From UHGV virus genome UHGV-0806601: a stretch of 19,093 bases of DNA. One strand, given 5' to 3'. Shown piece after piece: positions 1-19,093 of the stretch; position 1 is the first letter of the stretch; each line of letters starts with the position of its first letter. The position numbers and the translations under genes are program-made. Under the pieces are notes generated by a model. That model did no database searches. It was not told where the DNA came from and was given only the letters and a program-made list of their open reading frames with translations. The DNA is from a virus.

Positions 1-1
1 C

Positions 2-4174: not shown

Positions 4175-4178
4175 TTCT

Positions 4179-4601: not shown

Positions 4602-4642
4602 CATACCATAAATAATTTGAGTATACACAGCGGAGATACATC

Positions 4643-4813: not shown

Positions 4814-4818
4814 TCCCT

Positions 4819-4850: not shown

Positions 4851-4851
4851 T

Positions 4852-5580
4852 ATGAACGCACAGATCTATGACGCCCTATCGCAGGGCAACGCCTTTACCA
4901 ATCCTCTCCCGTCCCTCAGCAGCGCCTCACAGGGGTTAATCACCAGTGGTAAGGCGACTACAGCGTCACTGGCTAACACCGGAAATGCGCAGATTCAGGA
5001 AGCGCTGACGGCAGGTGGGTTAACTACAGCCAAACTCAACGAATCTACAGCAATGTTCAACTCAGCCAACGACAGCATCACTACTTTGAACAACTATGGC
5101 TACCAGTCAGTGAACGAGGCATATTCCCGCATCGGTACATCTGTGTCGTATAAGTCCGCCCTGAAGTCTATAGGTCGAGAACCGAACAACTGTGATCTGA
5201 TCAATAATGCATTTGGGGTTATTCAGAACCTCGGCAAACAGTGGATCAACACCATGCAAAGTGTTCTCACAACTATCACAAACAAGATGAATGAGCTGGC
5301 TGAGTTGGTAGCTCAGGGTGTCAGTGCTGGTCTTGATGCTATTCGGGCACTGGCTGCTGAAGTTACTCAAGCCATCGACACTGCTGTCGCATCAGTAGCC
5401 TCTATTGCTCAGGACATCACGAACGGTATTGCAGCAGAGTTAGCCCATATCCAAGACATGGTTGGTAAGTGTCTTAACTTCTCTTTCGCCAACGTGATCT
5501 CAGAGTGGGCGAAAGATATCTGCGCCGGAGGTGTCATCAACAGCATCGGTTCCGATAATCTGAAGAACGCGCTGAAGTAA
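4852..5580 (+). CDS. Ala/Ser/Thr-rich hypothetical protein (242 aa)
   Basis: The ORF-track start at 4810 would place the terminator hairpin inside the coding sequence, so the ATG at 4852 (MNAQIYD...) is preferred. Low-complexity A/S/T/N/G-rich sequence. Confidence 0.5.
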   Translation: MNAQIYDALSQGNAFTNPLPSLSSASQGLITSGKATTASLANTGNAQIQEALTAGGLTTAKLNESTAMFNSANDSITTLNNYGYQSVNEAYSRIGTSVSYKSALKSIGREPNNCDLINNAFGVIQNLGKQWINTMQSVLTTITNKMNELAELVAQGVSAGLDAIRALAAEVTQAIDTAVASVASIAQDITNGIAAELAHIQDMVGKCLNFSFANVISEWAKDICAGGVINSIGSDNLKNALK

Positions 5581-5583
5581 TCA

Positions 5584-6060
5584 GTGCTCCCGCGCCGGAA
5601 GAACTCCCACTGGTTCGATGCCATCCAACAGCAGGGAGTTCACACCCACATTACTCAGTCTGATCAAGATCGTTCCTCCTGGGTTAACTTCAAAGATACT
5701 CATCCCATTTCCAACCGCGTCGTTGTTAACGAACACACCCTGAGTTGCGATTCGTACTGGTTTATCTGAGTCATTCATGATCTTGAACGTCACGATTATA
5801 TCTGATGTTGTATCCAGTCGCCCAACCATGTGTTGCTTCAGCTTGGCATGGAATGATGGATTAAAGGTGATAATGATGCTATTGTTCTGAGAGTAATAAA
5901 TACTTGCTGATAGGTATGGAATCTTCCCTTCATCACCACGCCGCAGGAGAGGAATTGTGGTCTTCCAGTATGGCTTGAGGGTGCTCATGTTCTCATCAAA
6001 GCAACCTAAAGGTACGAGCTTCTGGAAGGGCTGGAACTCTTGCACGATGATGTCCAGCAT
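5584..6060 (-). CDS. hypothetical protein (about 159 aa; alternative start at 5988 gives 135 aa)
   Basis: This is the only sizeable ORF covering 5584-5956. The N-terminal part of the 271-aa track ORF is antisense to the plus-strand gene starting at 6260 and looks non-protein-like, so the start is trimmed. Ribosome-binding sites are weak at both candidate starts. Confidence 0.4.
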
Positions 6061-6259
6061 ACCCTTGTTACAAGTGGGAACGCTGGCCGACAACGTAACA
6101 GGTACAGTGCGCACTTCTGGGTTCCAGAGTTCGGAAACAGAAATTATTGGCGTGACAAAGATGCGACAGCTCGTAAACAAGAGCATCGAGCATGCCAACA
6201 ACAATCTACTGATCCCGCGCATCAGGGTCACAACATATCTCCACAGTAAAGGTGCTATT

Positions 6260-6760
6260 ATGTCCAACGTACAATTTAAGAACGAAAACCCTAATTTCGC
6301 GGCGTCCGATAAGTGGCGTCTGACCATCGGAGACCTTGTACTCCTAACCCGTAACATCCACGACTTCAGTATACCAGGAGTGTACTCTGAAGGCATCGAT
6401 GGTCCGTCTCCTGGCGACGTACTGGTTTCTATCCCTTCAGAGCGTTTAACCTATGACCCCGTCGTATTTACTTTCGTTATAGACGAGGACTGGAAATCAT
6501 GGTTACAGATCCACCAATGGATTACCAGCAACGTCGGCAAGGATTTGCCTGTCAGCAAGGACATTACCATTGAATTGCTGGATAACCTCAACCGACCGAT
6601 TGGCCTCACTCTCGTGCTGGAGGAAGCCCGTCCGACTGCTCTGGACAACGTACTGGTGGATGTGGACGCGGCTGTACCTCAGCTGGTGACGACAGTGACG
6701 TTCAAGTTCCAACAGCTGGTTCCACTATCTGGTGGGAAGGTGATTGATTCTAATCCATGA
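6260..6760 (+). CDS. hypothetical protein (167 aa)
   Basis: ATG at 6260 preceded by AGGTG. The upstream part of track ORF 5957..6760 overlaps the divergent region and looks non-coding. Confidence 0.5.
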   Translation: MSNVQFKNENPNFAASDKWRLTIGDLVLLTRNIHDFSIPGVYSEGIDGPSPGDVLVSIPSERLTYDPVVFTFVIDEDWKSWLQIHQWITSNVGKDLPVSKDITIELLDNLNRPIGLTLVLEEARPTALDNVLVDVDAAVPQLVTTVTFKFQQLVPLSGGKVIDSNP

Positions 6761-6773
6761 AATACGGTATAAT
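6744..6773 (+). promoter_or_regulatory. candidate sigma70-type promoter upstream of uvsY
   Basis: TTGATT (6744-6749), an 18-nt spacer, then TATAAT (6768-6773), about 30 nt upstream of the uvsY ATG. Confidence 0.3.
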
Positions 6774-6802
6774 TCTATGACATTGACAAGCTGGGATATT
6801 TT

Positions 6803-7255
6803 ATGAAAGAACAACTACAGACAATGGCAACCGAGGACATCATGAACGAACTGGAGCCGCTGATCACAGTGGACCCAGAAGACATGAACCTTGACCAGAT
6901 CTCGCTGAAAATCGGGCGCTCTTGGATGGCTGTGCAGCGGCATTATCTGCGCGAGGGACGTTATCTTGAATTTCTCAACGGGCGCTTCCGCCAGATCGAT
7001 CTCTATCTGCGCCGCTACTATGCAGGGGAGTTACCCCCTAACATCTACGCAGAGCGCCCCCTGAAGGTTCGCCCCCTGAAGTCTGACCTGGATACATGGG
7101 TCAAAGCAGACGATGACTATGTGGAGTTGTCTGTTCTGTTACAAGAACAAAAAGCAAAAGTCAAGTTCATAGAGACTTGTTTGGATCGCCTGAACAAACT
7201 GGGATACGAAGTGAAAAATGCTATTGAGTGGAGAAAATATATTGATGGTGTATAA
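6803..7255 (+). CDS. uvsY: UvsY-like recombination mediator
   Basis: 150 aa, with size and architecture similar to T4 UvsY as remembered (YYAGE... region vs T4 YYSGR...). Lies next to uvsW as in T4. Confidence 0.6.
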   Translation: MKEQLQTMATEDIMNELEPLITVDPEDMNLDQISLKIGRSWMAVQRHYLREGRYLEFLNGRFRQIDLYLRRYYAGELPPNIYAERPLKVRPLKSDLDTWVKADDDYVELSVLLQEQKAKVKFIETCLDRLNKLGYEVKNAIEWRKYIDGV

Positions 7256-7270
7256 CGAGGATCACACATA

Positions 7271-8017
7271 ATGGCATCTCTCCAGGATCTACGCAAGCTG
7301 AATGACTTCGAAAACCGTCATTACACATTCCAGCAATACGAACTTCCTCATAAGGAACTGGAGTGTGTTACGACGGAGAACGGTCGTCATTACGTTTCAC
7401 CGTCTGGTGTTAAACTGACATCCGTCACGACTATGCTGGGACGCACTGGAGATCATGAATGGCTTGAGTCTTGGAGGAAGAAGCTGGGCGCAGAGGCTGC
7501 TGATCTTGAGACTATGCGCTGTGCTGACCGAGGGGAGAAGCTGCACCTTGCGTGTGAACTGTATCTAAAGAACCGCCCAATGAAAGAAGTGTTGGAAGCG
7601 GCTGGCGAATACATGTTCATGTTCAAGCAGCTGTTCCCTTACCTGAACAAGATGACAAAGATCTATGCTCAGGAGATCCCATTATATAGCGAGGTGCTTG
7701 GTCTTGCAGGCCGTGTAGACCTTATCGGGGTTTATGAGGGTAAACCTGCTGTCATCGACTTCAAGACATCGAACACCATGAAGACGCGGGGCATGATCGA
7801 GGATTACAGTATCCAGCTATGCTTATATTCGGTCATGTTCCAGCAGATGTTCGGCGTCAAGATCACCCGCCTCATCAACGTGATCGCCAACGAGTCTTCC
7901 CCTCTACCAACCGTCATTGAGTTCAACCGTGATGACATTCTGACAAAGATGTTTGAGCGTGTTCGTCTGTATCATCGCATGGATAAAGAACAAAACGGAG
8001 TCTGGCCGAATCACTAA
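7271..8017 (+). CDS. PD-(D/E)xK nuclease (RecB/Cas4-like)
   Basis: Motifs in order: GRVDLIG (motif II Asp), VIDFKTS (D/E-x-K) and QLCLY (Q-x-x-x-Y), the classic RecB-family nuclease core. Confidence 0.55.
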   Translation: MASLQDLRKLNDFENRHYTFQQYELPHKELECVTTENGRHYVSPSGVKLTSVTTMLGRTGDHEWLESWRKKLGAEAADLETMRCADRGEKLHLACELYLKNRPMKEVLEAAGEYMFMFKQLFPYLNKMTKIYAQEIPLYSEVLGLAGRVDLIGVYEGKPAVIDFKTSNTMKTRGMIEDYSIQLCLYSVMFQQMFGVKITRLINVIANESSPLPTVIEFNRDDILTKMFERVRLYHRMDKEQNGVWPNH

Positions 8018-8045
8018 ATACCCCATAATCCTTGGGAGATTTTGT

Positions 8046-9554
8046 ATGGCAGACATTCAGATTGTTAAGGTTAACGAAGTCCGCATGCGTTGCATCGCAG
8101 ATCTTTCTATCAGGGAAGAACTTAATGACTACTTCAAATTCGAAGACCCGAACTTCGTTCCCAACCCCTTTTCTAAATGGGACGGGGTTGTCCGCCTATT
8201 TACCAAGTCATCTGGTCTAATCGATATCGGTCTGCTGTTTGAGGTATTTAAGTTCTGTAAGAACAACGGATACACCATTGAACTGGATCCGGCACTGAAG
8301 TACATTCAGGACATCCCAGATGAAGAAATCCGTGACTTCATCGACAGTCTGCATCCAAAGATCCGCACCGAAAATCACGAATATATCGATGCCGAGACTC
8401 GTGACTACCAGTACGACACCATCGCCAAGGCTATGCGTCAAACCAGATGCGTCTGTGAACTGGCTACGAGTGCCGGTAAGTCCTTTATTCTGTATGTCAT
8501 GGCGCGGTACTACAGGCGGCGCAGAGAAGCTCTCGAAAGTCCTCTGAAGACGCTTATCGTGGTGCCGTCAATCCACCTAGTCACTCAGCTGTACGACAAC
8601 TTCGAAGAGTATGCGCATGGCAGTGATTGGAAGCCCGTTGTTAACACCCAGCTGATTTTTGAGGGCGCGACAAAGGATATCAGCAAACCAATCGTCATCA
8701 GTACATGGCAAGGCATTCAAGACCAGCCGAAGGAATGGTTCCACCAGTTCGGTGATATCGTGGTGGATGAAGTGCACACCTCCAAGTCTGAGAAACTGTC
8801 TTACATCCTAAACAACTGCATCTATGCCGACCAGCGCCTGGGGGTTACAGGTACGCTGGCGAATACCAAAGTTGCCGGGCTTCAGGTGGTGGCTCACTTC
8901 GGGGCGTACCATAAGATCATCACGGCTCGCGATCTTATCAATCTCGGGTACGCCACTGACATCAAAGTGAAGATGATTCAGCTGAAGCACACTCCGGCGG
9001 ATGCTGTTGGTCTGGACGGGGATTATTCCAAGGAAATAGAATACCTTATCACACACCAGTCCCGCAACGAACTGATCGCCAAGATGGCACTGAATCTGAA
9101 AGGAAACGTGGCCATCATGTTCGAACGTATTGATGGTCACATGATGGTCGTGTATGATATGCTGAGCGCAGTCAAGCCCAACGTGTTTGTCATCAACGGG
9201 GAAGTGAAGATCGAAGACCGCCGCCGCATACAGAAAGCGATGGAGGATGGAGAGGACATCACCCTGTTGGCATCATACGGGACAATGCAGCAGGGAGTGT
9301 CGATCAAGAAGCTACACCACCTTGTACTGGCACACCCGAGCAAGTCATATATCCGCGTCATACAGACGTTGGGTCGTCTGATGCGTCAGCACTCCTCTAA
9401 GGACGTCGCGTGGATATGGGACTTAGTGGATGATGCATCGTACAACGCCAGCACGAACCACGCTCTTAGGCACTCTCACGAGCGTTACAAGTTTTACCTG
9501 GCAGAGCGCCACCCTGTGGAATTCATGAAGGTGGCGCTGGGTGATCACGATTAA
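8046..9554 (+). CDS. uvsW: UvsW-like SF2 DNA helicase
   Basis: Walker A TSAGKSF, DEVH box VVDEVHTS, and long collinear similarity to remembered T4 UvsW (e.g. KNLHHVVLAHG.KS.I..LQT.GR vs here KKLHHLVLAHPSKSYIRVIQTLGR). Start placed at the ATG at 8046 with GGAGA upstream. Confidence 0.85.
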   Translation: MADIQIVKVNEVRMRCIADLSIREELNDYFKFEDPNFVPNPFSKWDGVVRLFTKSSGLIDIGLLFEVFKFCKNNGYTIELDPALKYIQDIPDEEIRDFIDSLHPKIRTENHEYIDAETRDYQYDTIAKAMRQTRCVCELATSAGKSFILYVMARYYRRRREALESPLKTLIVVPSIHLVTQLYDNFEEYAHGSDWKPVVNTQLIFEGATKDISKPIVISTWQGIQDQPKEWFHQFGDIVVDEVHTSKSEKLSYILNNCIYADQRLGVTGTLANTKVAGLQVVAHFGAYHKIITARDLINLGYATDIKVKMIQLKHTPADAVGLDGDYSKEIEYLITHQSRNELIAKMALNLKGNVAIMFERIDGHMMVVYDMLSAVKPNVFVINGEVKIEDRRRIQKAMEDGEDITLLASYGTMQQGVSIKKLHHLVLAHPSKSYIRVIQTLGRLMRQHSSKDVAWIWDLVDDASYNASTNHALRHSHERYKFYLAERHPVEFMKVALGDHD

Positions 9555-9922
9555 TCTTGATTCACATAGGCGGGGGTGGCCTCGCCTTCATCAGTTACTA
9601 CACCGAACAATTTATCCAGAGAAGCCAGACATTGTGCGTTCAGGTGTTCACTGATCGTATCCTTCAGCATTTCTTCGCTGCCCAATTTGAATGGCAGAAC
9701 TTTCGCTTCGACGCCATTTTCAAACGTCACCACACCGACATACAGACCAACTTTCAGACCTGTCATCAACCCCATAGGGACAAATCGCGGCTCCGATGGT
9801 AAGTTCTTGTCTGACGCCAGTTGTGTCAGATAAACTGGGGTGCCTGTGGTAAATTGATCTGTGGTGAGGTTGGCGTCTGGCTTACTACACCCGACTGCGT
9901 ATAATCCTACGAACTGTTTCAT
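9551..9922 (-). CDS. hypothetical protein, possibly a lipoprotein (123 aa)
   Basis: Minus-strand ORF with a GAGAG ribosome-binding site. The N-terminus MKQFVGLYAVGC has a lipobox-like AVGC, but the signal peptide is unusually short. Its stop overlaps the uvsW stop by 2 nt (convergent). Confidence 0.4.
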   Translation of the reverse strand: MKQFVGLYAVGCSKPDANLTTDQFTTGTPVYLTQLASDKNLPSEPRFVPMGLMTGLKVGLYVGVVTFENGVEAKVLPFKLGSEEMLKDTISEHLNAQCLASLDKLFGVVTDEGEATPAYVNQD

Positions 9923-10104
9923 ATATTACTCTCGTGTGTTGGTTAACATGACATACATATTATTTCGCGTGCATGTTTAGACCAAATAAATTATTTTTGC
10001 TGTTGAATAAAAACTGCTTTCTTGTTGAACAATGGCGTGGTATTATACGAGTTGTGAGCGTTAGCGAACAACGAGTATTTGTTTTATGAGCGAAGCGAAT
10101 AGGA

Positions 10105-10151
10105 TTAATAAAGATTATTATCTTTAATAAAGGTTATTATCTTTAATAAAG
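10105..10151. repeat. tandem direct repeats with 19-nt period
   Basis: TTAATAAAG occurs at 10105, 10124 and 10143. Two near-identical units of about 19 nt, (A/G)TTATTATCTTTAATAAAG, sit at 10114-10132 and 10133-10151. Confidence 0.6.
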
Positions 10152-10154
10152 TCC

Positions 10155-10175
10155 ATAAATGCCGAAGGCATTTAT
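10155..10175. promoter_or_regulatory. perfect 9-bp inverted repeat (ATAAATGCC gaa GGCATTTAT)
   Basis: Hairpin or palindromic protein-binding site immediately after the tandem repeats, in the AT-rich region between the divergent 9922 gene and gp45. Confidence 0.45.
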
Positions 10176-10283
10176 TAATAACGCGTAGCGCAATTTGCCA
10201 CTTGTTCTATAAGCAAAACACAGCGATACTAGATTGCGTCAAACATGACTTGAACCCCCACTATATTTTGAGGATACATACAA

Positions 10284-10953
10284 ATGCAAGAGATCACTCT
10301 CTCCGAACGTACACTTCAGTTGCTGGCCAACTTTGAGACCATCAACCCATCTATCGTTCTGACACCGGGCAAGATGCTGCGCAGTATTAATGATTCTTCT
10401 ACTGTGATCGCCGTGGCGCAGATCGAAGAAGACTTCCCGTTTGAGTTCCCGATTCTGGACCTGACCAAACTTCTGGCCATCCAGCGCCTACCTTCCTTCA
10501 AAGGTGCCAAAGCCGAATTCCATCAGGACTACATCCTGTTGAAAGGCGAAAGTTCTCAGCTGCAATTCTGGCGTTCTGCTAAAGAACTCACGGTTGTCCC
10601 GGCTGATACTATTTGAACTGCCGTCTGTCGACTTTGAAGCGATCATCACTCCAGAGAAGATGAAAGAACTGACCCGCGCCTGCTCTACCCTAGGACATAA
10701 GACTGTGCGTCTGGTTGCTCAGGGTGGCAAAACACGCCTGGTTGCAACCACCACTACCCTGGACAACTCCAACAACTACACTGTTGAGCTGGGCGAAACC
10801 GCGCTGCCGGACTTCGTAATGCCACTGGATGTTGCCAACCTGAAAATGATCGAAGGCAACTACACTCTGCGTGCATGTGCTGATCTACAAATGGTGAACT
10901 TCCAATCATCCGACGCGACGATCAATTACTTCGTCGGCGCACAGATTGAGTAA
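10284..10953 (+). CDS. 45: sliding clamp (gp45 homolog), reading frame interrupted by a one-base frameshift near 10611-10616
   Basis: Two adjacent ORFs (10284-10616 and 10594-10953) together align collinearly with remembered T4 gp45 (FWRSAKELTVVPADTI / ELPSVDFEAIIT vs T4 FWPAADPSTVVAPNKPIPFPVASAVTEI). The second has no ATG (the track uses TTG). The shift maps to the T-run ACTATTTGAACTG. Confidence 0.7.
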
Positions 10954-10969
10954 TCAATCTCCAGCCTGA

Positions 10970-11002
10970 TGCTATAATGTGTGGGCGGGGGAGTTCCCCG
11001 CC
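10970..11002 (+). promoter_or_regulatory. extended -10 element (TGCTATAAT) followed by a GC-rich hairpin between gp45 and gp44
   Basis: TGcTATAAT at 10970-10978; hairpin GGCGGGG (10984-10990), loop GAGTT, CCCCGCC (10996-11002). Function (promoter, attenuator or RNA processing) is not resolved. Confidence 0.3.
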
Positions 11003-11034
11003 TATTTGAAATGATTCTTCTACACGAGGCTGAA

Positions 11035-12024
11035 ATGTCTAATATCACTATCGTTTCCGACCAGTACGCATGGGAAAACAAGTACCGCCCTGACAACCTG
11101 GACGAGATTATCATCCCTCAAGACGTCCGCGCTAAAATCCATGGCTACATCACCAGCGGCAACGGCAACATCCCGTCTATGCTGTTCTACTCTCCTCAGC
11201 CTGGTACTGGCAAGACTACCTCCGCCCTGGCCGTGTGTAATGAAATCGGTTGTAAGCAACCACTGATGATCAACGCATCCCTGGACAACAGCATCGACGT
11301 TATCCGTGACCGCGTGATTCAGTACTCTACTGGTGTGAGTGTATTCGGTGGCCGCAAAGTCGTTATCCTCGACGAAGTAGAGCGTCTGTCTATGGCGGCA
11401 CAGGAGTCGCTGAAGGGTATTGTGGAGAAGGTCTCCAAGAACTGTTCATTCATCTTGACCACCAACGCCAAGCAACGTGTGAACGAACCTCTGCGCTCTC
11501 GTTGCCGTGAAATCGACTTTATCTGGAATGAGACCGAGGCTGATGAGGTCAAACTTCAGTTCATGCGCCGCTGTGCTGAAATCCTTCGCTGCGAAGGTGT
11601 TGAGTATGACCCTCCTGTGTTGGCTGCTATTGTCAAGCGCCATTTCCCTGATAACCGCCGCATCATGGGTGTTCTACAGGATAACGTCACCACTTACGGC
11701 AAGATCGACGAACGTGCACTGGCTGTGTTAAAATCGGCCGATATGGGCATGTTGGTGAATATGTTGAAGGATAATGACTGGGCTGGGATGAAGCAGTGGG
11801 TGACCGACAACCAGAACTATATCACTGAAGACTTCTATTCCCGCTTCTTCCAGTTCTGTGTACCACAGGATAAAGAGAAGCAAATGTTGGTTCAGAATGA
11901 GTCTATCCCTGATCTGGTATGCGTATGTGGTCAGTCTCAGATTGAACACCGTCAAGTCGGCGATGTCTGGCTGCATGCTGTGTTTTTCCTGACCAATGTC
12001 ATGCTCAACATCAAGTGGAAGTGA
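11035..12024 (+). CDS. 44: clamp loader large subunit (gp44 homolog, AAA+ ATPase)
   Basis: KYRP..LDE...P motif and Walker A PQPGTGKTT, matching remembered T4 gp44 (EQKYRPSTIDECILP...SPSPGTGKTT), plus DEVER and SRC motifs. Start placed at the ATG at 11035 with GAGG upstream. Confidence 0.85.
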   Translation: MSNITIVSDQYAWENKYRPDNLDEIIIPQDVRAKIHGYITSGNGNIPSMLFYSPQPGTGKTTSALAVCNEIGCKQPLMINASLDNSIDVIRDRVIQYSTGVSVFGGRKVVILDEVERLSMAAQESLKGIVEKVSKNCSFILTTNAKQRVNEPLRSRCREIDFIWNETEADEVKLQFMRRCAEILRCEGVEYDPPVLAAIVKRHFPDNRRIMGVLQDNVTTYGKIDERALAVLKSADMGMLVNMLKDNDWAGMKQWVTDNQNYITEDFYSRFFQFCVPQDKEKQMLVQNESIPDLVCVCGQSQIEHRQVGDVWLHAVFFLTNVMLNIKWK

Positions 12025-12028
12025 TATT

Positions 12029-12451
12029 ATGGCCGCTCTTGGATTGTTCGATTACCTGGCTGCTCTGAACAGCAGCAAAGAAAACCTTTTGCGGTCTGAT
12101 GACCCAGAAGTGTTGAAAGGATTCGACCCGTTTATGACGCGGCGTGGTTTAGCTCAGAGCAAAGACACTCTAGTGGCTGCGCAACAGATGAATAAGCTAC
12201 ATGCTATCACTCCATGGATGCAATGGTCATATGCCTTTTACACCATTCCGGCTCGGAAACGCTACGACAAATGGTCTAAGAAAGGTCCGATTGATCCTGA
12301 CGTGAAGTTACTCTCCGAGTACTTCTACATCAGCATGGAGAAGGCATCGGAGTACGTCCGTTTCTTGCCGAAGGAAGTCCTGGCCGAGATACGCGAGAAG
12401 ATGAGACGCACTGAGCTGAACGCCAAAGCGAAACCGCGCAAGGCTAAATAG
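12029..12451 (+). CDS. 62: clamp loader small subunit (gp62 homolog)
   Basis: Position immediately after gp44 as in T4. PARKRYDKWSKK resembles remembered T4 gp62 PRGKRYGKWAK. The start is ambiguous between 11996 and 12029. Confidence 0.6.
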   Translation: MAALGLFDYLAALNSSKENLLRSDDPEVLKGFDPFMTRRGLAQSKDTLVAAQQMNKLHAITPWMQWSYAFYTIPARKRYDKWSKKGPIDPDVKLLSEYFYISMEKASEYVRFLPKEVLAEIREKMRRTELNAKAKPRKAK

Positions 12452-12480
12452 TTCAAACTATTGTAAAAGGGGAATGAGTC

Positions 12481-12945
12481 ATGGCGCGTAATACGCTAGA
12501 CATATTGAATATTTCAGCAGTCAACGATGAGGCCAGCATCGTTGATTGTATGGTTGAAGTTCAATTGAACCAAGATCGGCCAGGTATATTCCTGGGGATC
12601 AAGGAAACACTGAGTCGAATTGGGGTAAACACGCGCCAAGAGCCGAATACTCTGTATCAGACTTGCCATATTCTTCATAAGTGTGGTAAGTATTATATCG
12701 TCCACTTTAAGCATCTATTTATGCTGGACGGGCATTACAACGGATTTAACCGCGAAGATGTCCTGAGGATGAACCGAATCATCAAGCTGCTGGAGCAGTG
12801 GAACATGGTGAAGGTCATTCATCCTGAGCAGGTCACCGAAGCAGCCGATATGTCTCGCATTAAAGTGGTTAAACACGATCAGGTTCCTGAATGGAAGCTG
12901 GTTCCAAAATACATCATCCGGCCTACGAAGGCAAAAAGCGAATAA
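12481..12945 (+). CDS. regA: RegA translational repressor homolog
   Basis: KETLSRIGVNT...LYQTCHILHKCGKYYIVHFK and EWKLVPKYII match remembered T4 RegA (KETLTRMGIAN...LYQSCHILQKKGLYYIVHFK; EWKLVPKYTI). An alternative start at 12550 would match T4 length better. Confidence 0.75.
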   Translation: MARNTLDILNISAVNDEASIVDCMVEVQLNQDRPGIFLGIKETLSRIGVNTRQEPNTLYQTCHILHKCGKYYIVHFKHLFMLDGHYNGFNREDVLRMNRIIKLLEQWNMVKVIHPEQVTEAADMSRIKVVKHDQVPEWKLVPKYIIRPTKAKSE

Positions 12946-12961
12946 CTGGAGTCGCTATATT

Positions 12962-13834
12962 ATGACAACTACATTTTCTAAGAACGTGAATCTGAATCTG
13001 GCTTTCGGTAATGCAAAGGGCGACGTCACATCGCCTGACTTTGGTAAGATCCGCAATCAGGCGAAACTGGTGCTGGAAGAGACCCGCGAACTGCTGGAAG
13101 CGGCGTTCTTTGACCATGATGTGAAGGTGGAATTCACTGCAACTCCACGAGTCCTGAAAGAACCCGTTGTTGTCGACATCAAAGACATTATGCGCCAGAT
13201 CATGGATGCCCAGGGCGACATCACCACTGTCAACGACGGTTTGGCTCATATTGCTGGTTTCGACGGTGACGAATGCTTACAGCGCGTGTATGCCTCTAAC
13301 ATGAGCAAGTTCATCCGTAATGAAGACGAAGTTGTGCCTGCACTGGATTACTACTACAACAAAGGCTTCCCACGCGAAAGTCTGCGCATCGAAGGGGAAT
13401 TCCCTCAGGCGTGCATCAAAGTGGTGAACACCATCACCGTCGACGGCAAAGAGTACCCGGCTGGCAAGTTCCTGAAGAACATGGCAACCTTCAAAGAGCC
13501 TGACTTCTCTGATATGTTGACCACCGAGCCTAAGCGCCAGATCACCGAAATCATTCTGACGGGTACGGCCATTCCAGGCCAGCTCGGTTCTAACGAACAC
13601 GCTGGTGTTGCCTTCGCTCCTTTCGATTTTATTGACGAGATCATGGGATACACCAAGATGGGCTTCCAGGCGTTCTCTGGCGAAACAGTCGAGAGCTACA
13701 TTCCCGTGTTTGTTTTCAATGAAGACAACTTCCCAACTCTACCGTTGATCTGGGGTGAATGGAAAGCCAACGTCCGTATCTATGTGGCCAGCCCAGTGCA
13801 ATCATCTATCACCCAACTGACCCGTATCGATTAA
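12962..13834 (+). CDS. hypothetical protein (290 aa) with a possible MazG/HisE-like NTP pyrophosphohydrolase N-terminal domain
   Basis: An EExxExxE helix (LVLEETRELLEAA) followed by an Asp-rich helix (DAQGDITTVNDGLAHIAGF) is reminiscent of all-alpha NTP pyrophosphatases. The C-terminal 150 aa is unassigned. GGAG ribosome-binding site. Confidence 0.45.
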   Translation: MTTTFSKNVNLNLAFGNAKGDVTSPDFGKIRNQAKLVLEETRELLEAAFFDHDVKVEFTATPRVLKEPVVVDIKDIMRQIMDAQGDITTVNDGLAHIAGFDGDECLQRVYASNMSKFIRNEDEVVPALDYYYNKGFPRESLRIEGEFPQACIKVVNTITVDGKEYPAGKFLKNMATFKEPDFSDMLTTEPKRQITEIILTGTAIPGQLGSNEHAGVAFAPFDFIDEIMGYTKMGFQAFSGETVESYIPVFVFNEDNFPTLPLIWGEWKANVRIYVASPVQSSITQLTRID

Positions 13835-13857
13835 GATATACAGTTATTCACTAAACA

Positions 13858-13886
13858 ACAGAGGCTATAATGGCCTCTGTTTTCGT
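13858..13886 (+). terminator. rho-independent terminator
   Basis: Stem ACAGAGGC / GCCTCTGT with a 7-nt loop, followed by TTTTCG. Confidence 0.5.
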
Positions 13887-13902
13887 ATTCTAAGAGGATA
13901 CC

Positions 13903-15126
13903 ATGAAAGATAAAGCCCTAGACGTCCCGTACTGCGGTGTCCGTGAAGAAAAGATAAAGTCGGCCAAACCGGTTCTCAGTCCGACCCATACCCGCCTGTC
14001 TTACGAATGGATGAGCGAGCGCTATAAGATCCACGTCAAGAAGGATGTCCAGCGCCTTCCTGCTCCTTGGACTGATAATCCCATATTACGGCAGGTCAAG
14101 TTCTGTAATGTCCGGAGAGAGCACGACAGGCAGTCTCTCAACCTGATCAACAACATCGTCAACAACGATGCTCTGGGTATGGCCGACAAGATGTTCAACT
14201 GCGTGTTGTTCCGCATGTTCAACCTCTGGGATCCAATCCAGGCTATTGGCGGCGCGATGACGATCAAAGAATTCGCCAAGATCAACCTCGATACAACCCG
14301 CGAACGACTTCAGAAGTTCGAGGCCGACGGTGGTAAGGTATTCACCAATGCCTTCAACACGGGCGGCCTGAAGCAATGCCTGGCTTTCCCTGAGCTGGTT
14401 GTCAACCACAAAGAGCAGCGCTTCGGTGGGATGATGGTGAAAGTGTATCGCGTTGGCCAGGGTATTGTGGACGAGATGGACTACAAGGTCGCCAAGAAGC
14501 TGGTCGAAGAGAATCCTGGTGAATATACCATCGAGGGATGGGAACCGTACATGCCAATGCGTGTCATCCGCTCCCTGAAGGCATTCGTCAACAAGTATCC
14601 AAATTATTTCCATGACCTGCTGCGCCTTGGTACTCCTTTGGAAGTATACCAGCGCATGTACGACGACATCGAAGGGCTTGGTCCATTCTTGGCCTATCAG
14701 ATATGGGTTGACTTCACGTACATGCCGGGTTATCCGTTTAGTGAGAACCACTTCACGGTTGCTGGACCAGGCTGTCGCGCAGGTATTGATCTGCTGTTCC
14801 TGAACAAAGACGGTATGACTCACGAAGAATGCATCTTCTGGCTACGGGATAATCAGGACGCAGTGTACTCCCAATATGGGTATGTTCGCGAGCAATTCTG
14901 GTCGGCCGAAGAGCCTGTAGATCAGTGCATGAACGTTATGCAGCTGGAGAACATGTTCTGTGAACTGAGCAAGTACACCCGCTGTGTTGAGGCTGTACAG
15001 CAAGGTAAAAAACCGCGCGGGAAGGTCAGCTATGACGGCGGTGGGGAATACAAAAAGCGCTGTGATGAAGTCGTGCTCAAACGCGGTTCCGTCAATTTGC
15101 TGGACCGTTTGAAGAAACCTGAATAA
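13903..15126 (+). CDS. hypothetical protein (407 aa) with a helix-hairpin-helix-like motif
   Basis: YDDIEGLGPFLAYQIW fits the HhH signature h-x-x-h-x-G-h-G-x-x-x-A. Strong AGAGGA ribosome-binding site. No T4 homolog recognised. Confidence 0.5.
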   Translation: MKDKALDVPYCGVREEKIKSAKPVLSPTHTRLSYEWMSERYKIHVKKDVQRLPAPWTDNPILRQVKFCNVRREHDRQSLNLINNIVNNDALGMADKMFNCVLFRMFNLWDPIQAIGGAMTIKEFAKINLDTTRERLQKFEADGGKVFTNAFNTGGLKQCLAFPELVVNHKEQRFGGMMVKVYRVGQGIVDEMDYKVAKKLVEENPGEYTIEGWEPYMPMRVIRSLKAFVNKYPNYFHDLLRLGTPLEVYQRMYDDIEGLGPFLAYQIWVDFTYMPGYPFSENHFTVAGPGCRAGIDLLFLNKDGMTHEECIFWLRDNQDAVYSQYGYVREQFWSAEEPVDQCMNVMQLENMFCELSKYTRCVEAVQQGKKPRGKVSYDGGGEYKKRCDEVVLKRGSVNLLDRLKKPE

Positions 15127-15241
15127 AGATTCCCTTTACTTCGTTCTTCAATAACTCTTTTCAACGTATTATTGACCTCACTTAAACGAAGCGCCCTGGC
15201 AAACGGGGCGCACATTTGAACTGAAACAGGAAGATTACATC

Positions 15242-17260
15242 ATGTCAGATTTTAAGCCCTTCGCAGTAGCTGTCAACAATAACGTGCTGGCCATGTCAGC
15301 AACTGGTCTGTTCATGACCAACATCGATAAAGATGCTCTGTGGGATCTGTATCTGTCTTCTTTCCCTGCTGGCACTAACCCGCTCTACCGTGAGCGTACC
15401 GAGCACGACTGCACCTGCTGTAAACAATTCATCCGTAACATCGGCGGTGTGGTCACCATCGACGCCGACCTGAACGTGATCTCTATCTGGGATAACATTC
15501 AGCTGGGTAACGAATACGACGTTGTCGCTGCGGCGCTGTCAGCGTATGTTAAGCAACACGCAATCGTCGACGTGTACTTCAACGACACCAAGAAAATTGG
15601 TGTTGAGTCGAATCACGAAATGAAAGACGGTATTGTCCGCACCTACAACCACTTCCACACCGACCTGCTGGGCAGCTATGTTCTGCGGGCAGATGCCATC
15701 GCTTCTAAGAAGGGTGAAATCCGCCAGGCGATTGAAGTGTTTGAGCGCGGCCTGCGTGAACTGTCTCTGGAATCGGCTGAAATCGTTCTGGAATTGATCG
15801 ACCAGAATTCTCTGTATCGCGGTGAAGAGCACAAAGCGGCAGTGCAGGCGTTCGTGGTGAACAAGACCATGTACGAACAAACTGCAGAAGAGAAACGCGC
15901 TCTGTGGGCTTGGCGCACTGGCTACCGTGCAAACGGTCATATCCCTCACGGCATTCGTAATACCGTGATTGGCTCTCTGCTGGTAGACCTCAATGAAGGC
16001 CGGGATTTGGAAACCGCCGTGAAGTCCTTTGAAGCCAAAGTCGCCCCGACGAACTACAAGCGCCCAACCGCGCTGGTCACGAAGTCTATGATTGAAAACG
16101 CGCAGAAAGAAGTCGAAGCGCTGGGTCTGACTGATTCACTGGGTCGCCGTTATGCCGTGTATGACGATCTGACCATCAACAACGTTCTGTTTGCCGACCT
16201 GGCAGCACAGAAGAAGATGGACCCGTTTGCTCAGCTGGCGTCTGAAGTGAAGACTCCGACCAAGTCCCTGGACAAGGTTGAAGAGATCACGATCGACGAT
16301 TTCCTGACCAACGTGTTGCCAAAGGCGCATTCCCTGGAAGTGCTGGTCGAAAACTCTCACATTGGCAACCTGATGTCCCTGATCGCTCCGGCTACCGCAG
16401 GCGCTCCTAACCTGTTCAAGTGGAACAACGGCTTCAGCTGGTCGTACAATGGCGAAGTGGCCGACTCTATCAAAGAGCGCGTGAAGACCGCAGGCGGCAA
16501 CGTCGACAGCTTCCTCCGTGTGTCGCTGGCGTGGCATAACAACGACGACCTGGATCTGAGCATGAACGATCCTCTTCACAACCACGTGTATTATCACAAC
16601 CGTCGTTCGGCAACTGGCGCAACCCTGGATATCGACATGAACGGTATGGACGGCATTGATCCCAACCGCCGCCCGGTGGAGAACATCTTCTTCAGCGATG
16701 AACGCAAGCTACGTGATGGTCTGTACGAGTTCTATGTCACTAACTTCAGCCAGCGTGAAACCTGTGATATGGGCTTCGAAATCGAAGTTGAATACAAAGG
16801 CCAGACCAAGCGTTTTTCGCATCCTGGTCTGAAGCACAAAGATCGCACTCTGGCTGTTGTGATTGATGTCCGCGCTGGTCAGGTGGTCAACATCAGTTCT
16901 ACCCTGAAGGACGACGCTCGCTCTCAGGAAATCTGGGGCATCAAGACCTCGGTCTTCCAGAAGGTACAGCTGGTTCTGAACTCACCAAACCATTGGGACG
17001 GTGAGCAGACTGGCAACAAGCACGTGTTCTTCATCCTGGAAGGTTGTGCTAACCCTGTCGGCACCCGTGGCTTCTATAACGAATATCTGAAGCCGGAACT
17101 TGATAAACACCGCAAGGTTTTTGAAATGTTAGGTGGTAAGATTAAAGTACAGCCAAGCACTGAGCAGCTGTCCGGTCTGGGCTTCTCTACCACCCAACGC
17201 AACCACGTGTTCGTGAAGGTGAGCGGTTCGTTCAACCGCACTGTGAAAGTTGTGTTCTAA
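15242..17260 (+). CDS. large hypothetical protein (672 aa)
   Basis: A long ORF with an AGGAAG ribosome-binding site and protein-like composition. Contains an H-D-C-T-C-C cluster near residue 55. No Walker A and no polymerase motifs seen. Confidence 0.6.
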   Translation: MSDFKPFAVAVNNNVLAMSATGLFMTNIDKDALWDLYLSSFPAGTNPLYRERTEHDCTCCKQFIRNIGGVVTIDADLNVISIWDNIQLGNEYDVVAAALSAYVKQHAIVDVYFNDTKKIGVESNHEMKDGIVRTYNHFHTDLLGSYVLRADAIASKKGEIRQAIEVFERGLRELSLESAEIVLELIDQNSLYRGEEHKAAVQAFVVNKTMYEQTAEEKRALWAWRTGYRANGHIPHGIRNTVIGSLLVDLNEGRDLETAVKSFEAKVAPTNYKRPTALVTKSMIENAQKEVEALGLTDSLGRRYAVYDDLTINNVLFADLAAQKKMDPFAQLASEVKTPTKSLDKVEEITIDDFLTNVLPKAHSLEVLVENSHIGNLMSLIAPATAGAPNLFKWNNGFSWSYNGEVADSIKERVKTAGGNVDSFLRVSLAWHNNDDLDLSMNDPLHNHVYYHNRRSATGATLDIDMNGMDGIDPNRRPVENIFFSDERKLRDGLYEFYVTNFSQRETCDMGFEIEVEYKGQTKRFSHPGLKHKDRTLAVVIDVRAGQVVNISSTLKDDARSQEIWGIKTSVFQKVQLVLNSPNHWDGEQTGNKHVFFILEGCANPVGTRGFYNEYLKPELDKHRKVFEMLGGKIKVQPSTEQLSGLGFSTTQRNHVFVKVSGSFNRTVKVVF

Positions 17261-17304
17261 ACCTGATTTGAAATTGTAACCCATTCATCATTGAGGATAG
17301 TAAA

Positions 17305-17677
17305 ATGTTTGATAAAGCAACCCGTCTGAAACTGCGCTTCGAGTCTAACAAAGGTCTGCTGTCTGTTGAGCAGGTTTGGGACCTGAGCCTGACCGCCCTG
17401 AACGAAATGGCGAAAGGTCTGAGCCGTCAGGTGAAAAGCAGCAGAAACCGATGAAGAAGATTTCATTGGCACCAAAAGCAACGTTGACTCCGAACTGCAG
17501 CTGCGCTTCGACGTTGTCAAGCACATCATCGGCGTTAAGCTGAAAGAACGTGACGACAGCAGAGACGCGGCAGAGCGTAAGGCGAACAACCAGATTATCC
17601 TGGAGCTGATCCAGCGTAAGAAACAGCAAGAGCTGGAAAGCAAATCTGTTGAAGAACTGGAAGCACTCCTGAAATAA
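17305..17677 (+). CDS. hypothetical protein (about 123 aa if joined), interrupted by a one-base frameshift at the A-run 17434-17437
   Basis: Frame 1 runs ATG 17305 to a stop at 17452-17454 (49 codons). The next frame is open from 17435 to the stop at 17675-17677 with no start codon of its own and protein-like sequence (..FIGTKSNVDSELQLRFDVVKHIIGVKLKERDD..). GAGGA ribosome-binding site. Translated by hand. Confidence 0.45.
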
Positions 17678-17701
17678 TCTGTCTGACCTCAGCCTGAGCA
17701 A

Positions 17702-17727
17702 CCCCGCCATGTGCGGGGTTTTCTTTT
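17702..17727 (+). terminator. rho-independent terminator
   Basis: CCCCGC (17702-17707), loop, GCGGGG (17713-17718), then TTTTCTTTT; nearly the same module as at 1211-1238. Confidence 0.6.
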
Positions 17728-17738
17728 GGACAAAGAAT

Positions 17739-18149
17739 ATGAAACCTGTTATATGTGATTACTGTGGCCTCCCAGCCGAATTCGTCGGTGGTGATGTTCT
17801 CTACCCTCATCGCCCTGACCTCCGCAATCTGAAGTTCTGGGTGTGCACTCCATGTGATGCCCGTGTCGGTTGCCATGCCCATGGCGACGGCAGACAACCT
17901 CTGGGAAGGATGGCGAATGCCGCTCTCCGTGCTGCTAAGCAGGAAGCCCATAGATCGTTTGACCCATTGTGGAAAAGCGGAGAGAGGAGCAGGAGCGACG
18001 CTTACAGTTGGCTGGCGCATAAGCTGGGGATAAAGAAGCGTGAGTGTCATATTGGCTTGTTCGATATCGACATGTGCCGTAAAGTAGTTGTTGTCTGTCA
18101 ACAATACGAGGCACATATCAATGTCAAAGGAAATACAAGAAGCGTTTGA
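17739..18149 (+). CDS. zinc-ribbon protein of unknown function
   Basis: CxxC (C6, C9) and CxxC (C36, C39) pairs in the N-terminal 40 aa. The track start at 17709 lies inside the terminator loop, so the ATG at 17739 is preferred. Confidence 0.5.
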   Translation: MKPVICDYCGLPAEFVGGDVLYPHRPDLRNLKFWVCTPCDARVGCHAHGDGRQPLGRMANAALRAAKQEAHRSFDPLWKSGERSRSDAYSWLAHKLGIKKRECHIGLFDIDMCRKVVVVCQQYEAHINVKGNTRSV

Positions 18150-18366
18150 GAATCTAACTCAGGCGCTCACCAACTGCAACCGTCTCAACTATTGCAACGA
18201 CCCATTGCAAAAGCTGAAGTCCCTGGTAGAATCAGAACTGGCTAAACTGGCCGAATACAACGCCATCCAAGAAGACGTGGCGTTCATGTCGGACACGGTC
18301 GTAGACACCCTTCCGCGCGAAGTGTTACAATGTCTTGGACCGCATCGCAAAGGTGGGTTTCCGTGA
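18121..18366 (+). CDS. hypothetical protein (81 aa)
   Basis: ATG at 18121 with GAGG upstream; overlaps the previous gene's 3' end by 29 nt. Confidence 0.35.
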   Translation: MSKEIQEAFENLTQALTNCNRLNYCNDPLQKLKSLVESELAKLAEYNAIQEDVAFMSDTVVDTLPREVLQCLGPHRKGGFP

Positions 18367-18434
18367 ACCACAAGACGCCAAACCCACCCCCGAAATTCTT
18401 ACATCCATCGTTGACTCGTTTAAGTGAGACCGCC

Positions 18435-18668
18435 ATGTCTAAAGAGATTATCTTTACCGGGGCGGCGCTTGACACCATGTATGCCCTGTACAATCGTGGT
18501 CCACTGAGCATTGGCGATATCCCGTCTAAGTCAGGTCTGGACTTCCTGTTGCGACATAAGCTGGTTGTGGCTGTGGTAGTCAGGGGTGAAACGCAATACG
18601 CCGGGTCGATGGCCATGGCTTCCCACTACAAACGTCAGACATGGAAGGGTGCTTCCTCCAAATCCTGA
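18435..18668 (+). CDS. hypothetical protein (77 aa)
   Basis: ATG at 18435; the upstream part of the track ORF has no ribosome-binding site and is Pro-rich and non-protein-like. Confidence 0.35.
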   Translation: MSKEIIFTGAALDTMYALYNRGPLSIGDIPSKSGLDFLLRHKLVVAVVVRGETQYAGSMAMASHYKRQTWKGASSKS

Positions 18669-18775
18669 TTTGTCAAAACCTTTTCAATATCAATAACGTC
18701 CAGTGAATTTGCTGGGCGTTTCAATTTGTGCATCACAGTATAATACGGCTGTACAATACACCATGAGGCTACATT

Positions 18776-19066
18776 ATGTTTCGTTTGAAATTGAACGACC
18801 AAGATGTGTTCTACAAACACTTCACCTTCCCAGGTGGTGAGGAACATATCAAGATCCAAAAGTCTGGTATCCCTATCGGCCACGTTCAGAACGTGGTGAT
18901 TGATGCTCACATCAAATCATCAGCCGACTTCATTGAGCTGGCGCTTCTGGTTAATGCCGTTCGTGGTCTGGGTAACGTGGACCGCCTGACGACATTCCAT
19001 GCATATATCCCGTACTTTCCATCTGCGCCAGCAGTTCTCGGTTACAGTACCAGCCATATTCGATGA
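18776..19066 (+). CDS. ORF resembling the N-terminal domain of ribose-phosphate pyrophosphokinase (PRPP synthetase-like), apparently truncated
   Basis: F.GGE..I.I...(30 aa)..ELALLVNAVRG....RLTTF.AYIPYF parallels the remembered Prs N-domain pattern F.DGE..V.I....ELL.M.DALRRASA.RITAVIPYFGYARQDR. The ORF stops after 96 codons, just before the window end. GAGG ribosome-binding site. Confidence 0.35.
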   Translation: MFRLKLNDQDVFYKHFTFPGGEEHIKIQKSGIPIGHVQNVVIDAHIKSSADFIELALLVNAVRGLGNVDRLTTFHAYIPYFPSAPAVLGYSTSHIR

Positions 19067-19093
19067 AAGTAATGTTATCGAAAGCAAATGGCA

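What the first reader, a model, noticed from the sequence alone, without database searches (positions are those of the whole stretch)
18776..19066. PRPP-synthetase-like N-domain ORF ending after 96 codons
Prs-like enzymes in phages are associated with nucleotide or NAD-precursor metabolism, and Prs-family enzymes have been implicated in phage NAD+ reconstitution pathways that counter bacterial immunity. This ORF shows the N-domain pattern but stops early and lacks the RQDR-type region. It may be a truncated gene, a standalone domain or another frameshift. The window ends 27 nt later, so the downstream context cannot be seen.
Basis: inference. Interest (0 to 1): 0.45.

Follow-up and report, generated by a model that had tools for sequence, protein, structure and literature searches.

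The report
Chimeric contig end truncating phage adps
The short "PRPP-synthetase-like" ORF is the first 82 codons of a known phage NAD+-rebuilding gene (adps) joined to a backwards piece of a gene about 3 kb away, most likely an amplification or assembly artefact at the end of the contig.

Summary
The ORF 18776-19066 (96 aa) is in the sequence. Residues 1-82 are 100% identical to the N-terminus of the 284-aa Prs-like protein of Aglimvirinae (Ackermannviridae) phages. In relatives this gene sits next to a Nampt-like gene. The pair is NARP1 (Adps + Namat), and Ackermannviridae orthologs are in the Prs/Adps homolog table of the paper that described the pathway.

The early stop is not a frameshift and not a domain boundary. 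From 19019 to the window end (75 nt) the sequence is the reverse complement of an internal part of the vWA-domain gene, about 3.1 kb downstream in full-cassette relatives. The last 14 codons and the stop are antisense vWA sequence.

The junction is inverted, the two sites lie under 10 kb apart, and they share 2 nt ("CC"). It was found nowhere else.

The same strain occurs, with zero substitutions, in assemblies labelled "HumMal", which I infer is the Malawian-twin gut virome, made with MDA and 454. The window also carries four homopolymer insertions those assemblies lack.

An MDA chimera at the contig end is the best explanation (about 0.78). Genuine collinear deletion remnants of adps (77 and 112 aa) do circulate in related phages. 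Interest is low.

The parts
18739..18744 (+). TATAAT (-10-like) element inside the motif CAGTATAAT, just downstream of the point (~18729) where cassette-plus and cassette-minus relatives diverge. Probably the promoter of the adps cassette; this is an inference.
   Evidence: Alignment of 12 loci: each alternative cassette carries its own GTATAAT motif here. The sigma-70 consensus scan did not call it.
18765..18768 (+). GAGG ribosome-binding site, 7 nt upstream of the ATG.
   Evidence: Read directly from the sequence. Conserved in L008, L009, L010 and L011.
18776..19020 (+). Genuine 5' part of adps, the Prs-like ADPR-pyrophosphate synthetase gene of NARP1: codons 1-81 plus the first two bases of codon 82.
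   Evidence: Collinear with AV101, LHE287, YX22 and L008 at 96-98.5% identity. The protein is 100% identical to L008, L009 and L010 over residues 1-82. phrog_619 E=1.2e-13.
19019..19020 (.). Junction. The dinucleotide CC is shared by both parent sequences (2-nt microhomology). Looser similarity follows: CCGTATGCTCGCCAG in adps against CCATCTGC-GCCAG in antisense vWA.
   Evidence: Three-way alignments and the junction view.
19019..19093 (-). 75-nt fragment of the vWA-domain protein gene in inverted orientation. Its minus strand encodes PFAFDNITFIEYGWYCNRELLAQM, residues ~160-183 of the 747-aa L008 gene call (~146-169 of the 733-aa protein).
   Evidence: It matches the opposite strand of the vWA gene in A221, PC3, AV101 and others at 89-96%, and L008 13675->13601 on the minus strand. 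The translation is identical to the vWA protein, and all nucleotide differences are synonymous.
19022..19066 (+). Meaningless tail of the 96-codon ORF (SAPAVLGYSTSHIR + TGA), read from the antisense strand of the vWA fragment.
   Evidence: Frame translations. The protein alignment to Adps ends at residue 82-84.

Best explanation
The window is a contig from an Aglimvirinae (Ackermannviridae) phage. Its last 75 nt come from a chimeric DNA molecule or read. The sequence runs normally through the promoter, RBS and first 82 codons of adps, the Prs-like first enzyme of NARP1. That enzyme converts ADP-ribose and ATP into ADPR-PP, which Namat then turns into NAD+. At the dinucleotide CC (19019-19020) the sequence jumps to the opposite strand of the vWA-domain gene, about 3.1 kb downstream in full-cassette relatives. 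The resulting 96-codon ORF is therefore adps codons 1-82 plus 14 nonsense codons and a stop read from antisense vWA sequence.

The most likely origin is a phi29 multiple-displacement-amplification chimera, in which a displaced 3' end re-primes on a nearby displaced strand. The assembler used that molecule to extend the contig end in a low-coverage, error-prone 454 data set. A product like this would lack the RQDR loop, the whole C-terminal PRTase domain and the catalytic lysine, so it would be inactive.

Shown here: the anatomy of the junction, its uniqueness, and the errors elsewhere in the window. Inferred: the MDA/454 provenance, and that the phage's real gene is not truncated at this point.
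For: 1. Collinearity with about 290 related phage records stops at 19019-19031.
2. Bases 19019-19093 match the opposite strand of the vWA gene in every relative. They translate on the minus strand to a perfect vWA peptide, with synonymous differences only.
3. The junction was not found by exact search in IMG/VR, JGI metagenome contigs or GTDB genome contigs. It is absent from all 29 fetched related loci, and the 96-aa product is not in the 153-billion-gene index.
4. The junction lies only 75 nt from the window end.
5. The same strain is in Logan ERR975170 (17,316 nt, 0 substitutions) and NCBI CYGL01 contigs (4.1 kb, 0 substitutions).
6. Against these, and against all relatives where I compared them, the window has four extra bases. 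All are homopolymer over-calls: 10612, 17434, 17719 and 18325. Three of the four fall in the last 1.8 kb.
7. CYGL01 is labelled 'Assembly HumMal, Ma_F259' (PMC10888812). The Malawian-twin virome study used GenomiPhi V2 MDA and 454 FLX Titanium (PMC5892011, Table S1).
8. In MDA, 85% of chimeras are inverted joins, mostly between sites under 10 kb apart, and 93.5% of the proximal inverted ones have at least 2 nt of complementarity. Chimeric reads were 495 of 108,944 (PMC1855051). The window's junction fits all three properties.
9. A true inversion would split the 733-aa vWA gene, which is intact in every relative examined.
Against: No reads could be inspected, so the junction's read support is unknown. 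The link from the window to the MDA/454 data set is indirect: it rests on sequence identity to assemblies of that data set, and on my reading of 'HumMal' as the Reyes et al. 2015 study, whose paper is not in the library. Neither independent assembly of this strain reaches the junction (they end at window 17316 and 18763), so an intact adps in this strain was not demonstrated. This cassette does decay in nature: real truncated adps alleles exist. I do not know whether the window end is a contig end.
Confidence: 0.78

Rival explanations
1. A real inversion of about 3.1 kb in this phage, or in a packaged defective subpopulation, with breakpoints in adps codon 82 and around vWA codon 170. It would invert the adps 3' part, namat, the 71-aa ORF and the vWA 5' part, and would inactivate both NARP1 and the vWA protein.
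For: The window sequence as given is exactly what one end of such an inversion would look like. The cassette is demonstrably unstable and dispensable in this phage group. Short imperfect inverted similarity exists at the two sites.
Against: It would break the 733-aa vWA gene, which is intact in all relatives examined. All natural rearrangements seen at this locus are collinear deletions at 8-11-nt direct microhomologies, and none are inversions. The junction is unique. It sits 75 nt from the window end, in a stretch with other sequence errors. The probable data source is MDA-amplified.
Confidence: 0.13
2. A natural collinear deletion remnant (pseudogene) of adps, like the 112-aa and 77-aa alleles of related phages.
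For: Such remnants are real and widespread. The 112-aa allele (P0121) is on 11 contigs up to 152 kb. The 77-aa allele (P0136) is on 28 contigs, including the cultured phage vB_EcoM-RPN242.
Against: In those alleles adps is joined to downstream DNA in the same orientation. In L010 the join is at the start of the 71-aa ORF. In L011 it is to a namat fragment. In the window the partner is the antisense strand of the inside of the vWA gene.
Confidence: 0.03
3. A frameshift or indel (sequencing error or programmed) at 19015-19025, with the rest of the Prs-like protein encoded in another frame downstream.
For: The window does contain four single-base insertion errors elsewhere.
Against: None of the three forward frames after 19020 encodes Prs-like sequence. 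The DNA after 19020 does not align to adps at all, and it aligns at 96% to antisense vWA.
Confidence: 0.01
4. A selected standalone Prs N-domain protein, for example a regulator or a decoy that binds ADPR or host Prs.
For: Three independent truncated alleles in relatives keep the promoter and the N-terminus.
Against: The breakpoints differ (codons 49, 82, 99 and 222) and fall inside the fold, not at a domain boundary; the ICP1 Adps N-domain is residues 1-136 (PMC13586617). The C-terminal tails are unrelated out-of-frame or fused sequence. The window's tail is antisense sequence of another gene.
Confidence: 0.03

Closest known systems
Adps (ADPR-pyrophosphate synthetase) of NAD+ reconstitution pathway 1 (NARP1), Osterman et al. 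2024 (bioRxiv 10.1101/2024.02.11.579819); ICP1 Adps structure (PMC13586617)
   Same: The first 82 residues are identical to the Aglimvirinae full-length 284-aa protein. That protein is 39% identical (E=2e-38) to Felixounavirus wV8 Adps over residues 80-266. It lies immediately upstream of a Namat/NAPRTase-family gene in relatives. Ackermannviridae orthologs (Ag3, 0507-KN2-1) are in the paper's Prs/Adps homolog table and flagged as having Namat within 10 genes.
   Different: The window copy stops being Adps at codon 82. The YARQDR loop, the rest of the N-domain, the C-terminal PRTase domain and the catalytic lysine are all absent, and no namat is visible.
Canonical ribose-phosphate pyrophosphokinase (Prs/PRPS; Pfam PF13793 + PF00156/PF14572)
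   Same: The fold family is the same. The full-length relative matches solved Prs structures at E=6e-18 to 1e-9 and both Pfam domains.
   Different: The full-length relative scores below every NCBIfam Prs cut-off, for example TIGR01251 at 107.9 bits against 113. By homology to Adps its substrate is ADPR and not ribose-5-phosphate. The window fragment has no Pfam hit.
MDA (phi29) chimeras, Lasken & Stockwell 2007 (PMC1855051)
   Same: An inverted join, with the two segments about 3.1 kb apart on the same molecule and 2 nt of complementarity at the junction. This is the dominant chimera class described.
   Different: It has not been shown at read level here, and the MDA origin of the window's data is inferred.
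Natural adps deletion alleles in Aglimvirinae/Kuttervirus-like phages (112-aa P0121; 77-aa P0136 in vB_EcoM-RPN242; the Ag3 Adps::Namat fusion)
   Same: They keep the same promoter and N-terminus and have lost NARP1 function.
   Different: They are collinear deletions at direct 8-11-nt microhomologies, found on many long contigs. The window's junction is inverted, unique and at the sequence end.

Membership tests
Prs/PRPP-synthetase superfamily | The N-terminal domain matches a family profile. | tested here: met
   Pfam gives no hit for the 96-aa ORF. PHROG phrog_619 'ribose-phosphate pyrophosphokinase' gives E=1.2e-13 over residues 4-84. The ORF is 100% identical over residues 1-82 to proteins that pass the PF13793 gathering score.
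Prs/PRPP-synthetase superfamily | The (Y/N)ARQDR loop and the C-terminal PRTase domain are present. | tested here: not met
   The ORF departs from Adps at codon 83, immediately before YARQDR. No frame downstream encodes them.
Adps (NARP1) | Belongs to the phage Prs-like group that is associated with Namat. | tested here: met
   Near-identical Ackermannviridae orthologs (Ag3, 0507-KN2-1) are listed in Osterman et al. Table S1 with 'Namat within 10 genes: Yes'. The full-length relative is 39% identical to wV8 Adps and scores below the canonical Prs cut-offs.
Adps (NARP1) | A namat gene lies immediately adjacent. | tested here: inconclusive
   This is met in the relatives AV101, L008, L009, L028 and L029. 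In the window the sequence jumps to antisense vWA before any namat, and the window then ends.
Adps (NARP1) | A catalytic lysine is present (Lys162 in SpbetaL1, Lys185 in ICP1, Lys197 in B. subtilis Prs). | tested here: not met
   It is absent from the 96-aa ORF. In the full-length relative, a Lys in GHKNRD aligns with HKTRD of M. tuberculosis Prs.
Adps (NARP1) | Converts ADPR and ATP to ADPR-PP, and counters NAD+-depleting defence. | not testable with these tools
   This needs biochemistry or phage genetics. It is inferred for the full-length relatives by homology only.
MDA chimera / chimeric contig end | The second segment is inverted relative to the genome. | tested here: met
   Bases 19019-19093 match the opposite strand of the vWA gene in all relatives.
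MDA chimera / chimeric contig end | The two segments are proximal (<10 kb), with at least 2 nt of complementarity at the junction. | tested here: met
   The breakpoints are 3,088 nt apart in L008 coordinates (10587 and 13675). CC is shared at the junction. The criteria come from PMC1855051.
MDA chimera / chimeric contig end | The DNA was MDA-amplified. | tested here: inconclusive
   The window is identical (0 substitutions) to ERR975170 and CYGL01 'HumMal' assemblies. Reyes 2015 used GenomiPhi V2 and 454. The link between HumMal and that study, and between the window and that data set, is inferred.
MDA chimera / chimeric contig end | The junction is supported only by rare or single reads, while the majority of reads are collinear. 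| not testable with these tools
   No read data are available. Indirect evidence only: the junction ORF is absent from the gene index, which does hold other Logan and NCBI contigs of this strain.

The most novel reading that the evidence does not exclude
The junction is real, and N-terminal Adps fragments (77, 96 and 112 aa), each kept with the cassette promoter, are recurrently retained. The reason would be that a short Prs N-domain fragment has a function of its own, such as poisoning host Prs or Adps hexamers or binding ADPR-derived molecules. Alternatively, the window records a genuine inversion that simultaneously inactivates NARP1 and the conserved vWA protein in a circulating gut phage.
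Probability: 0.05. Interest if true: 0.45.

Novelty: not a real feature. Interest (0 to 1): 0.1.

Why it matters
The result matters mostly as a caution. The 96-codon "truncated Prs" should not be counted as a new standalone domain, a frameshifted gene or a NARP1 variant. The real gene underneath is an ordinary member of the known Adps family.

The comparison did show one modest point. The NARP1 cassette is a presence/absence and decay polymorphism in Aglimvirinae and related phages. I found full, absent, 77-aa, 112-aa and Adps::Namat-fusion alleles, and the 77-aa allele and the fusion occur in cultured phages. This fits a counter-defence module that is dispensable when hosts lack NAD+-depleting defences. 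It is also relevant to anyone annotating or counting NARP1 in phage genomes.

Tried and rejected
- Pfam scan of the 96-aa ORF: no hit even at E<=10. The fragment is too short for PF13793, and identity had to be established through full-length homologs and PHROGs.
- Exact searches for the junction (29-37-mers) in IMG/VR, JGI metagenome contigs and GTDB genomes: 0 hits.
- Window-specific adps and vWA patterns: 0 hits in IMG/VR and the metagenome contigs.
- Exact-product look-ups of the 96-aa ORF and of the window's frameshifted 82-aa ORF: not on record. The window's own contig is apparently not in the gene index.
- Attempts to find this strain's own adps, namat and vWA contigs through the 77-aa, 136-aa and 502-aa neighbours and through P0122. 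These recovered the same strain only up to window 17316 and 18763, so an intact gene in this strain could not be shown.
- SNP comparison to guess the strain's true allele. The nearest relative, L029, has the full-length gene, but the remnant alleles are nearly as close, so this is undecided.
- Frameshift hypothesis: rejected.
- Collinear-deletion hypothesis: rejected on orientation.
- A pure de Bruijn-graph mis-join at a shared repeat is unlikely, because the two parent sites share only 2 exact bases. This contrasts with the NCBI contig CYGL01000298.1, whose misjoins sit on a ~35-nt terminator repeat and an AT-rich repeat.
- The Reyes et al. 2015 PNAS paper is not held. Its methods were taken from Shkoporov et al. 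2018, Table S1.

Full report
**Observation.** A GAGG lies 7 nt upstream of the ATG, and a TATAAT lies at 18739-18744. Pfam gives no hit for the 96-aa product even at E<=10. The Prs-like reading is still correct. The product aligns to the 284-aa 'ribose-phosphate pyrophosphokinase' of Escherichia phage AV101 at 82/84 identity, E=3e-59. It is 100% identical over residues 1-82 to the full-length proteins of contigs L008 and L009. It matches PHROG phrog_619 (ribose-phosphate pyrophosphokinase) at E=1.2e-13 over residues 4-84. The full-length homolog passes the Pfam gathering scores for Pribosyltran_N and Pribosyltran and matches solved Prs structures at E down to 6e-18. All profile and pairwise matches of the window ORF end at residue 82-84, immediately before the YARQDR motif.

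**What the window is.** The whole 19-kb window is collinear at 91-97% identity with Ackermannviridae (Aglimvirinae) phages AV101, LHE287, YX22, A221 and others. It includes the capsid, UvsW, clamp-loader and 5-hmdU kinase genes. In AV101, L008, L009, L028 and L029 the Prs-like gene (855 nt) is followed, with a 4-nt overlap, by a 554-aa NAPRTase-family gene. A 71-aa ORF and a 733-aa vWA-domain gene come next.

**What ends the ORF.** Collinearity with every relative stops at 19019-19031. The last 75 nt of the window (19019-19093) match the opposite strand of the vWA gene. The matches are 96% to A221, PC3 and L008, and 90.5% to AV101; in L008 the segment is 13675->13601 on the minus strand. Read on the minus strand, the tail translates to PFAFDNITFIEYGWYCNRELLAQM. 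This is identical to the vWA protein of relatives, and every nucleotide difference is synonymous. The tail is therefore authentic vWA coding sequence of this strain, attached backwards. The two parent sequences share only the dinucleotide CC (19019-19020), followed by loose similarity: CCGTATGCTCGCCAG against CCATCTGC-GCCAG. The ORF's last 14 codons (SAPAVLGYSTSHIR) and its stop are antisense vWA sequence. None of the three forward frames continues the Prs sequence, which excludes a frameshift. In a full-cassette genome the two breakpoints are 3,088 nt apart.

**Real or artefact.** Several observations point to an artefact.
- The junction was not found by exact search in IMG/VR, JGI metagenome contigs or GTDB genomes. 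It is absent from all 29 related loci fetched, and its product is not in the gene index.
- The junction is 75 nt from the window end.
- A true inversion would split the vWA gene, which is intact in every relative examined.
- All natural rearrangements I found at this locus are collinear deletions at direct microhomologies. L010 and L023 are joined at TGTCT(G/A)TGAAG, and L011 at ATCATCAG.
- The same strain has been assembled independently. Logan ERR975170_138 matches window 1-17316 with 0 substitutions, and NCBI CYGL01002073.1 matches 14642-18763 with 0 substitutions. The next-closest contig is 98.6% identical.
- Against these assemblies the window has four extra bases, all homopolymer extensions: 10612 (TT to TTT), 17434 (AAA to AAAA), 17719 (TTT to TTTT) and 18325 (T to TT). 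For the last three, the relatives L001, L008 and L009 also lack the extra base. The insertions split the 222-aa, 123-aa and 101-aa genes. Three of the four lie in the last 1.8 kb, with binomial p of about 0.003 by my arithmetic.
- CYGL01 is labelled 'Assembly HumMal, Ma_F259...' (PMC10888812). I read this as the Malawian-twin gut virome of Reyes et al. 2015. According to Shkoporov et al. 2018, Table S1, that study used GenomiPhi V2 MDA and 454 FLX Titanium. Homopolymer over-calls are a well-known error mode of 454 pyrosequencing (from my own knowledge, not checked in a source here).
- Lasken & Stockwell 2007 found that 85% of MDA chimeras are inverted joins, mostly between sites under 10 kb apart. 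Of the proximal inverted ones, 93.5% have at least 2 nt of complementarity at the junction. About 1 read in 220 was chimeric. The window's junction matches each property.
- The NCBI assembly of the same sample also contains misjoins at short repeats (contig CYGL01000298.1). These data do not assemble cleanly.

Taking these together, I put about 0.78 on a chimeric contig end and about 0.13 on a genuine inversion, possibly in a defective subpopulation. The rest is spread over the other rivals. The weak points are that no reads could be examined, that provenance is inferred, and that neither independent assembly reaches the junction.

**What the gene is.** The adjacent Prs-like and Nampt-like pair is NARP1. 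Adps pyrophosphorylates ADP-ribose with ATP to give ADPR-PP. Namat then joins ADPR-PP to nicotinamide to remake NAD+, which counters NAD+-depleting defences such as SIR2-HerA and type I Thoeris (bioRxiv 10.1101/2024.02.11.579819). That paper's Prs/Adps homolog table (Table S1) lists the Ackermannviridae orthologs Klebsiella phage 0507-KN2-1 and Shigella phage Ag3, with 'Namat within 10 genes: Yes'. The Ag3 N-terminus is nearly identical to the window's. The AV101 protein is 39% identical to Felixounavirus wV8 Adps (E=2e-38). The L008 full-length protein scores below all NCBIfam cut-offs for canonical Prs, as expected for the divergent Adps subfamily. The ICP1 Adps structure places the N-domain at residues 1-136 and the C-domain at 137-280, with a catalytic Lys185 (PMC13586617). 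An 82-residue fragment is therefore less than one domain and cannot be active.

**Context found along the way.** The locus downstream of the 77-aa gene (window 18435-18668) is polymorphic among near-identical phages.
- Full cassette: AV101, L008, L009, L028, L029.
- No cassette, with a different promoter and a 56-aa ORF instead: A221 and at least 11 contigs.
- A 112-aa remnant, adps codons 1-99 fused to the start of the 71-aa ORF: P0121, on 11 contigs.
- A 77-aa remnant, broken at codon 49 and followed by a 145-nt namat fragment: P0136, on 28 contigs, including the cultured phage vB_EcoM-RPN242.
- An unrelated 120-aa insert: L003.

Phage Ag3 carries an in-frame Adps(1-222)::Namat fusion made by deletion. 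NARP1 is therefore dispensable and repeatedly lost in this group. The window proves only that its strain has the cassette-type promoter and at least adps codons 1-82. The strain's true allele is undetermined; the nearest relative, L029, has the full-length gene.

**Verdict.** The truncated ORF itself is most likely not a real feature of the phage genome. The underlying gene is an already-known Adps. Interest is low.

Noticed in passing
window 10612, 17434, 17719, 18325: There are four single-base homopolymer insertions relative to independent assemblies of the same strain; the relatives L001, L008 and L009 also lack the last three. They split the 222-aa gene (ORFs 10284-10616 and 10594-10953), truncate the 123-aa gene (17305-17454) and split the 101-aa gene (18118-18366 and 18335-18427). 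The one at 17719 is intergenic. Other 'frameshifts' reported in this window are probably these sequencing errors.
   Followed up: yes
window ~18729 onward; loci L003-L012, L015-L024, L028-L029: The NARP1 (adps-namat) cassette is a presence/absence and decay polymorphism in Aglimvirinae. Alleles seen: full, absent (replaced by another promoter and a 56-aa ORF), a 112-aa remnant, and a 77-aa remnant with a namat fragment. The remnants are on 11 and 28 contigs respectively, including the cultured phage vB_EcoM-RPN242.
   Followed up: partly
Shigella phage Ag3 FJ373894 (Osterman et al. Tables S1/S2): The Ag3 'Adps' and 'Namat' entries are one ORF, Adps residues 1-222 fused in frame to the middle of Namat (...DDICDGGRTFVE|EYYGADIDEDY...). 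This is probably a non-functional deletion allele. PHROG phrog_12872 (547 positions, annotated 'nicotinamide phosphoribosyl transferase') matches Adps residues 1-222. It seems to be built on this fusion, which may explain why some phage records label the Prs-like gene as Nampt.
   Followed up: partly
L003:10340-10702: One relative (Logan SRR23493876) has an unrelated 120-aa ORF (MSVKMKGAEFKTYYHDDQYW...) with its own GTATAAT motif at the site where the NARP1 cassette sits in others. The site may be a hotspot for accessory or counter-defence genes. The function of the ORF was not examined.
   Followed up: no
L025 (NCBI CYGL01000298.1) against window ~1210 and ~10106: The deposited contig of the same sample joins non-adjacent genome regions: tail spike | window 1210-10112 | gp5/gp25/RNR. 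The joins fall at a repeated terminator hairpin (AAACCCCGCTTCGGCGGGGTTTT, window ~1212-1234) and at an AT-rich repeat. These are probably misassemblies.
   Followed up: partly
window ~10106-10150: An AT-rich tandem repeat, AATAAAGATTATTATCTTTAATAAAGGTTATTATCTTTAATAAAG, lies in the intergenic region upstream of the 222-aa gene. It could be a promoter or regulatory repeat.
   Followed up: no
window 13903-15126: This gene encodes a 407-aa protein with a PF18723 (HMUDK_hel, 5-hmdU DNA kinase) hit in relatives. That fits the thymidine hypermodification known in this phage family. Relatives carry 398-407-aa variants, and some have extra 309-aa and 74-aa ORFs after it.
   Followed up: no
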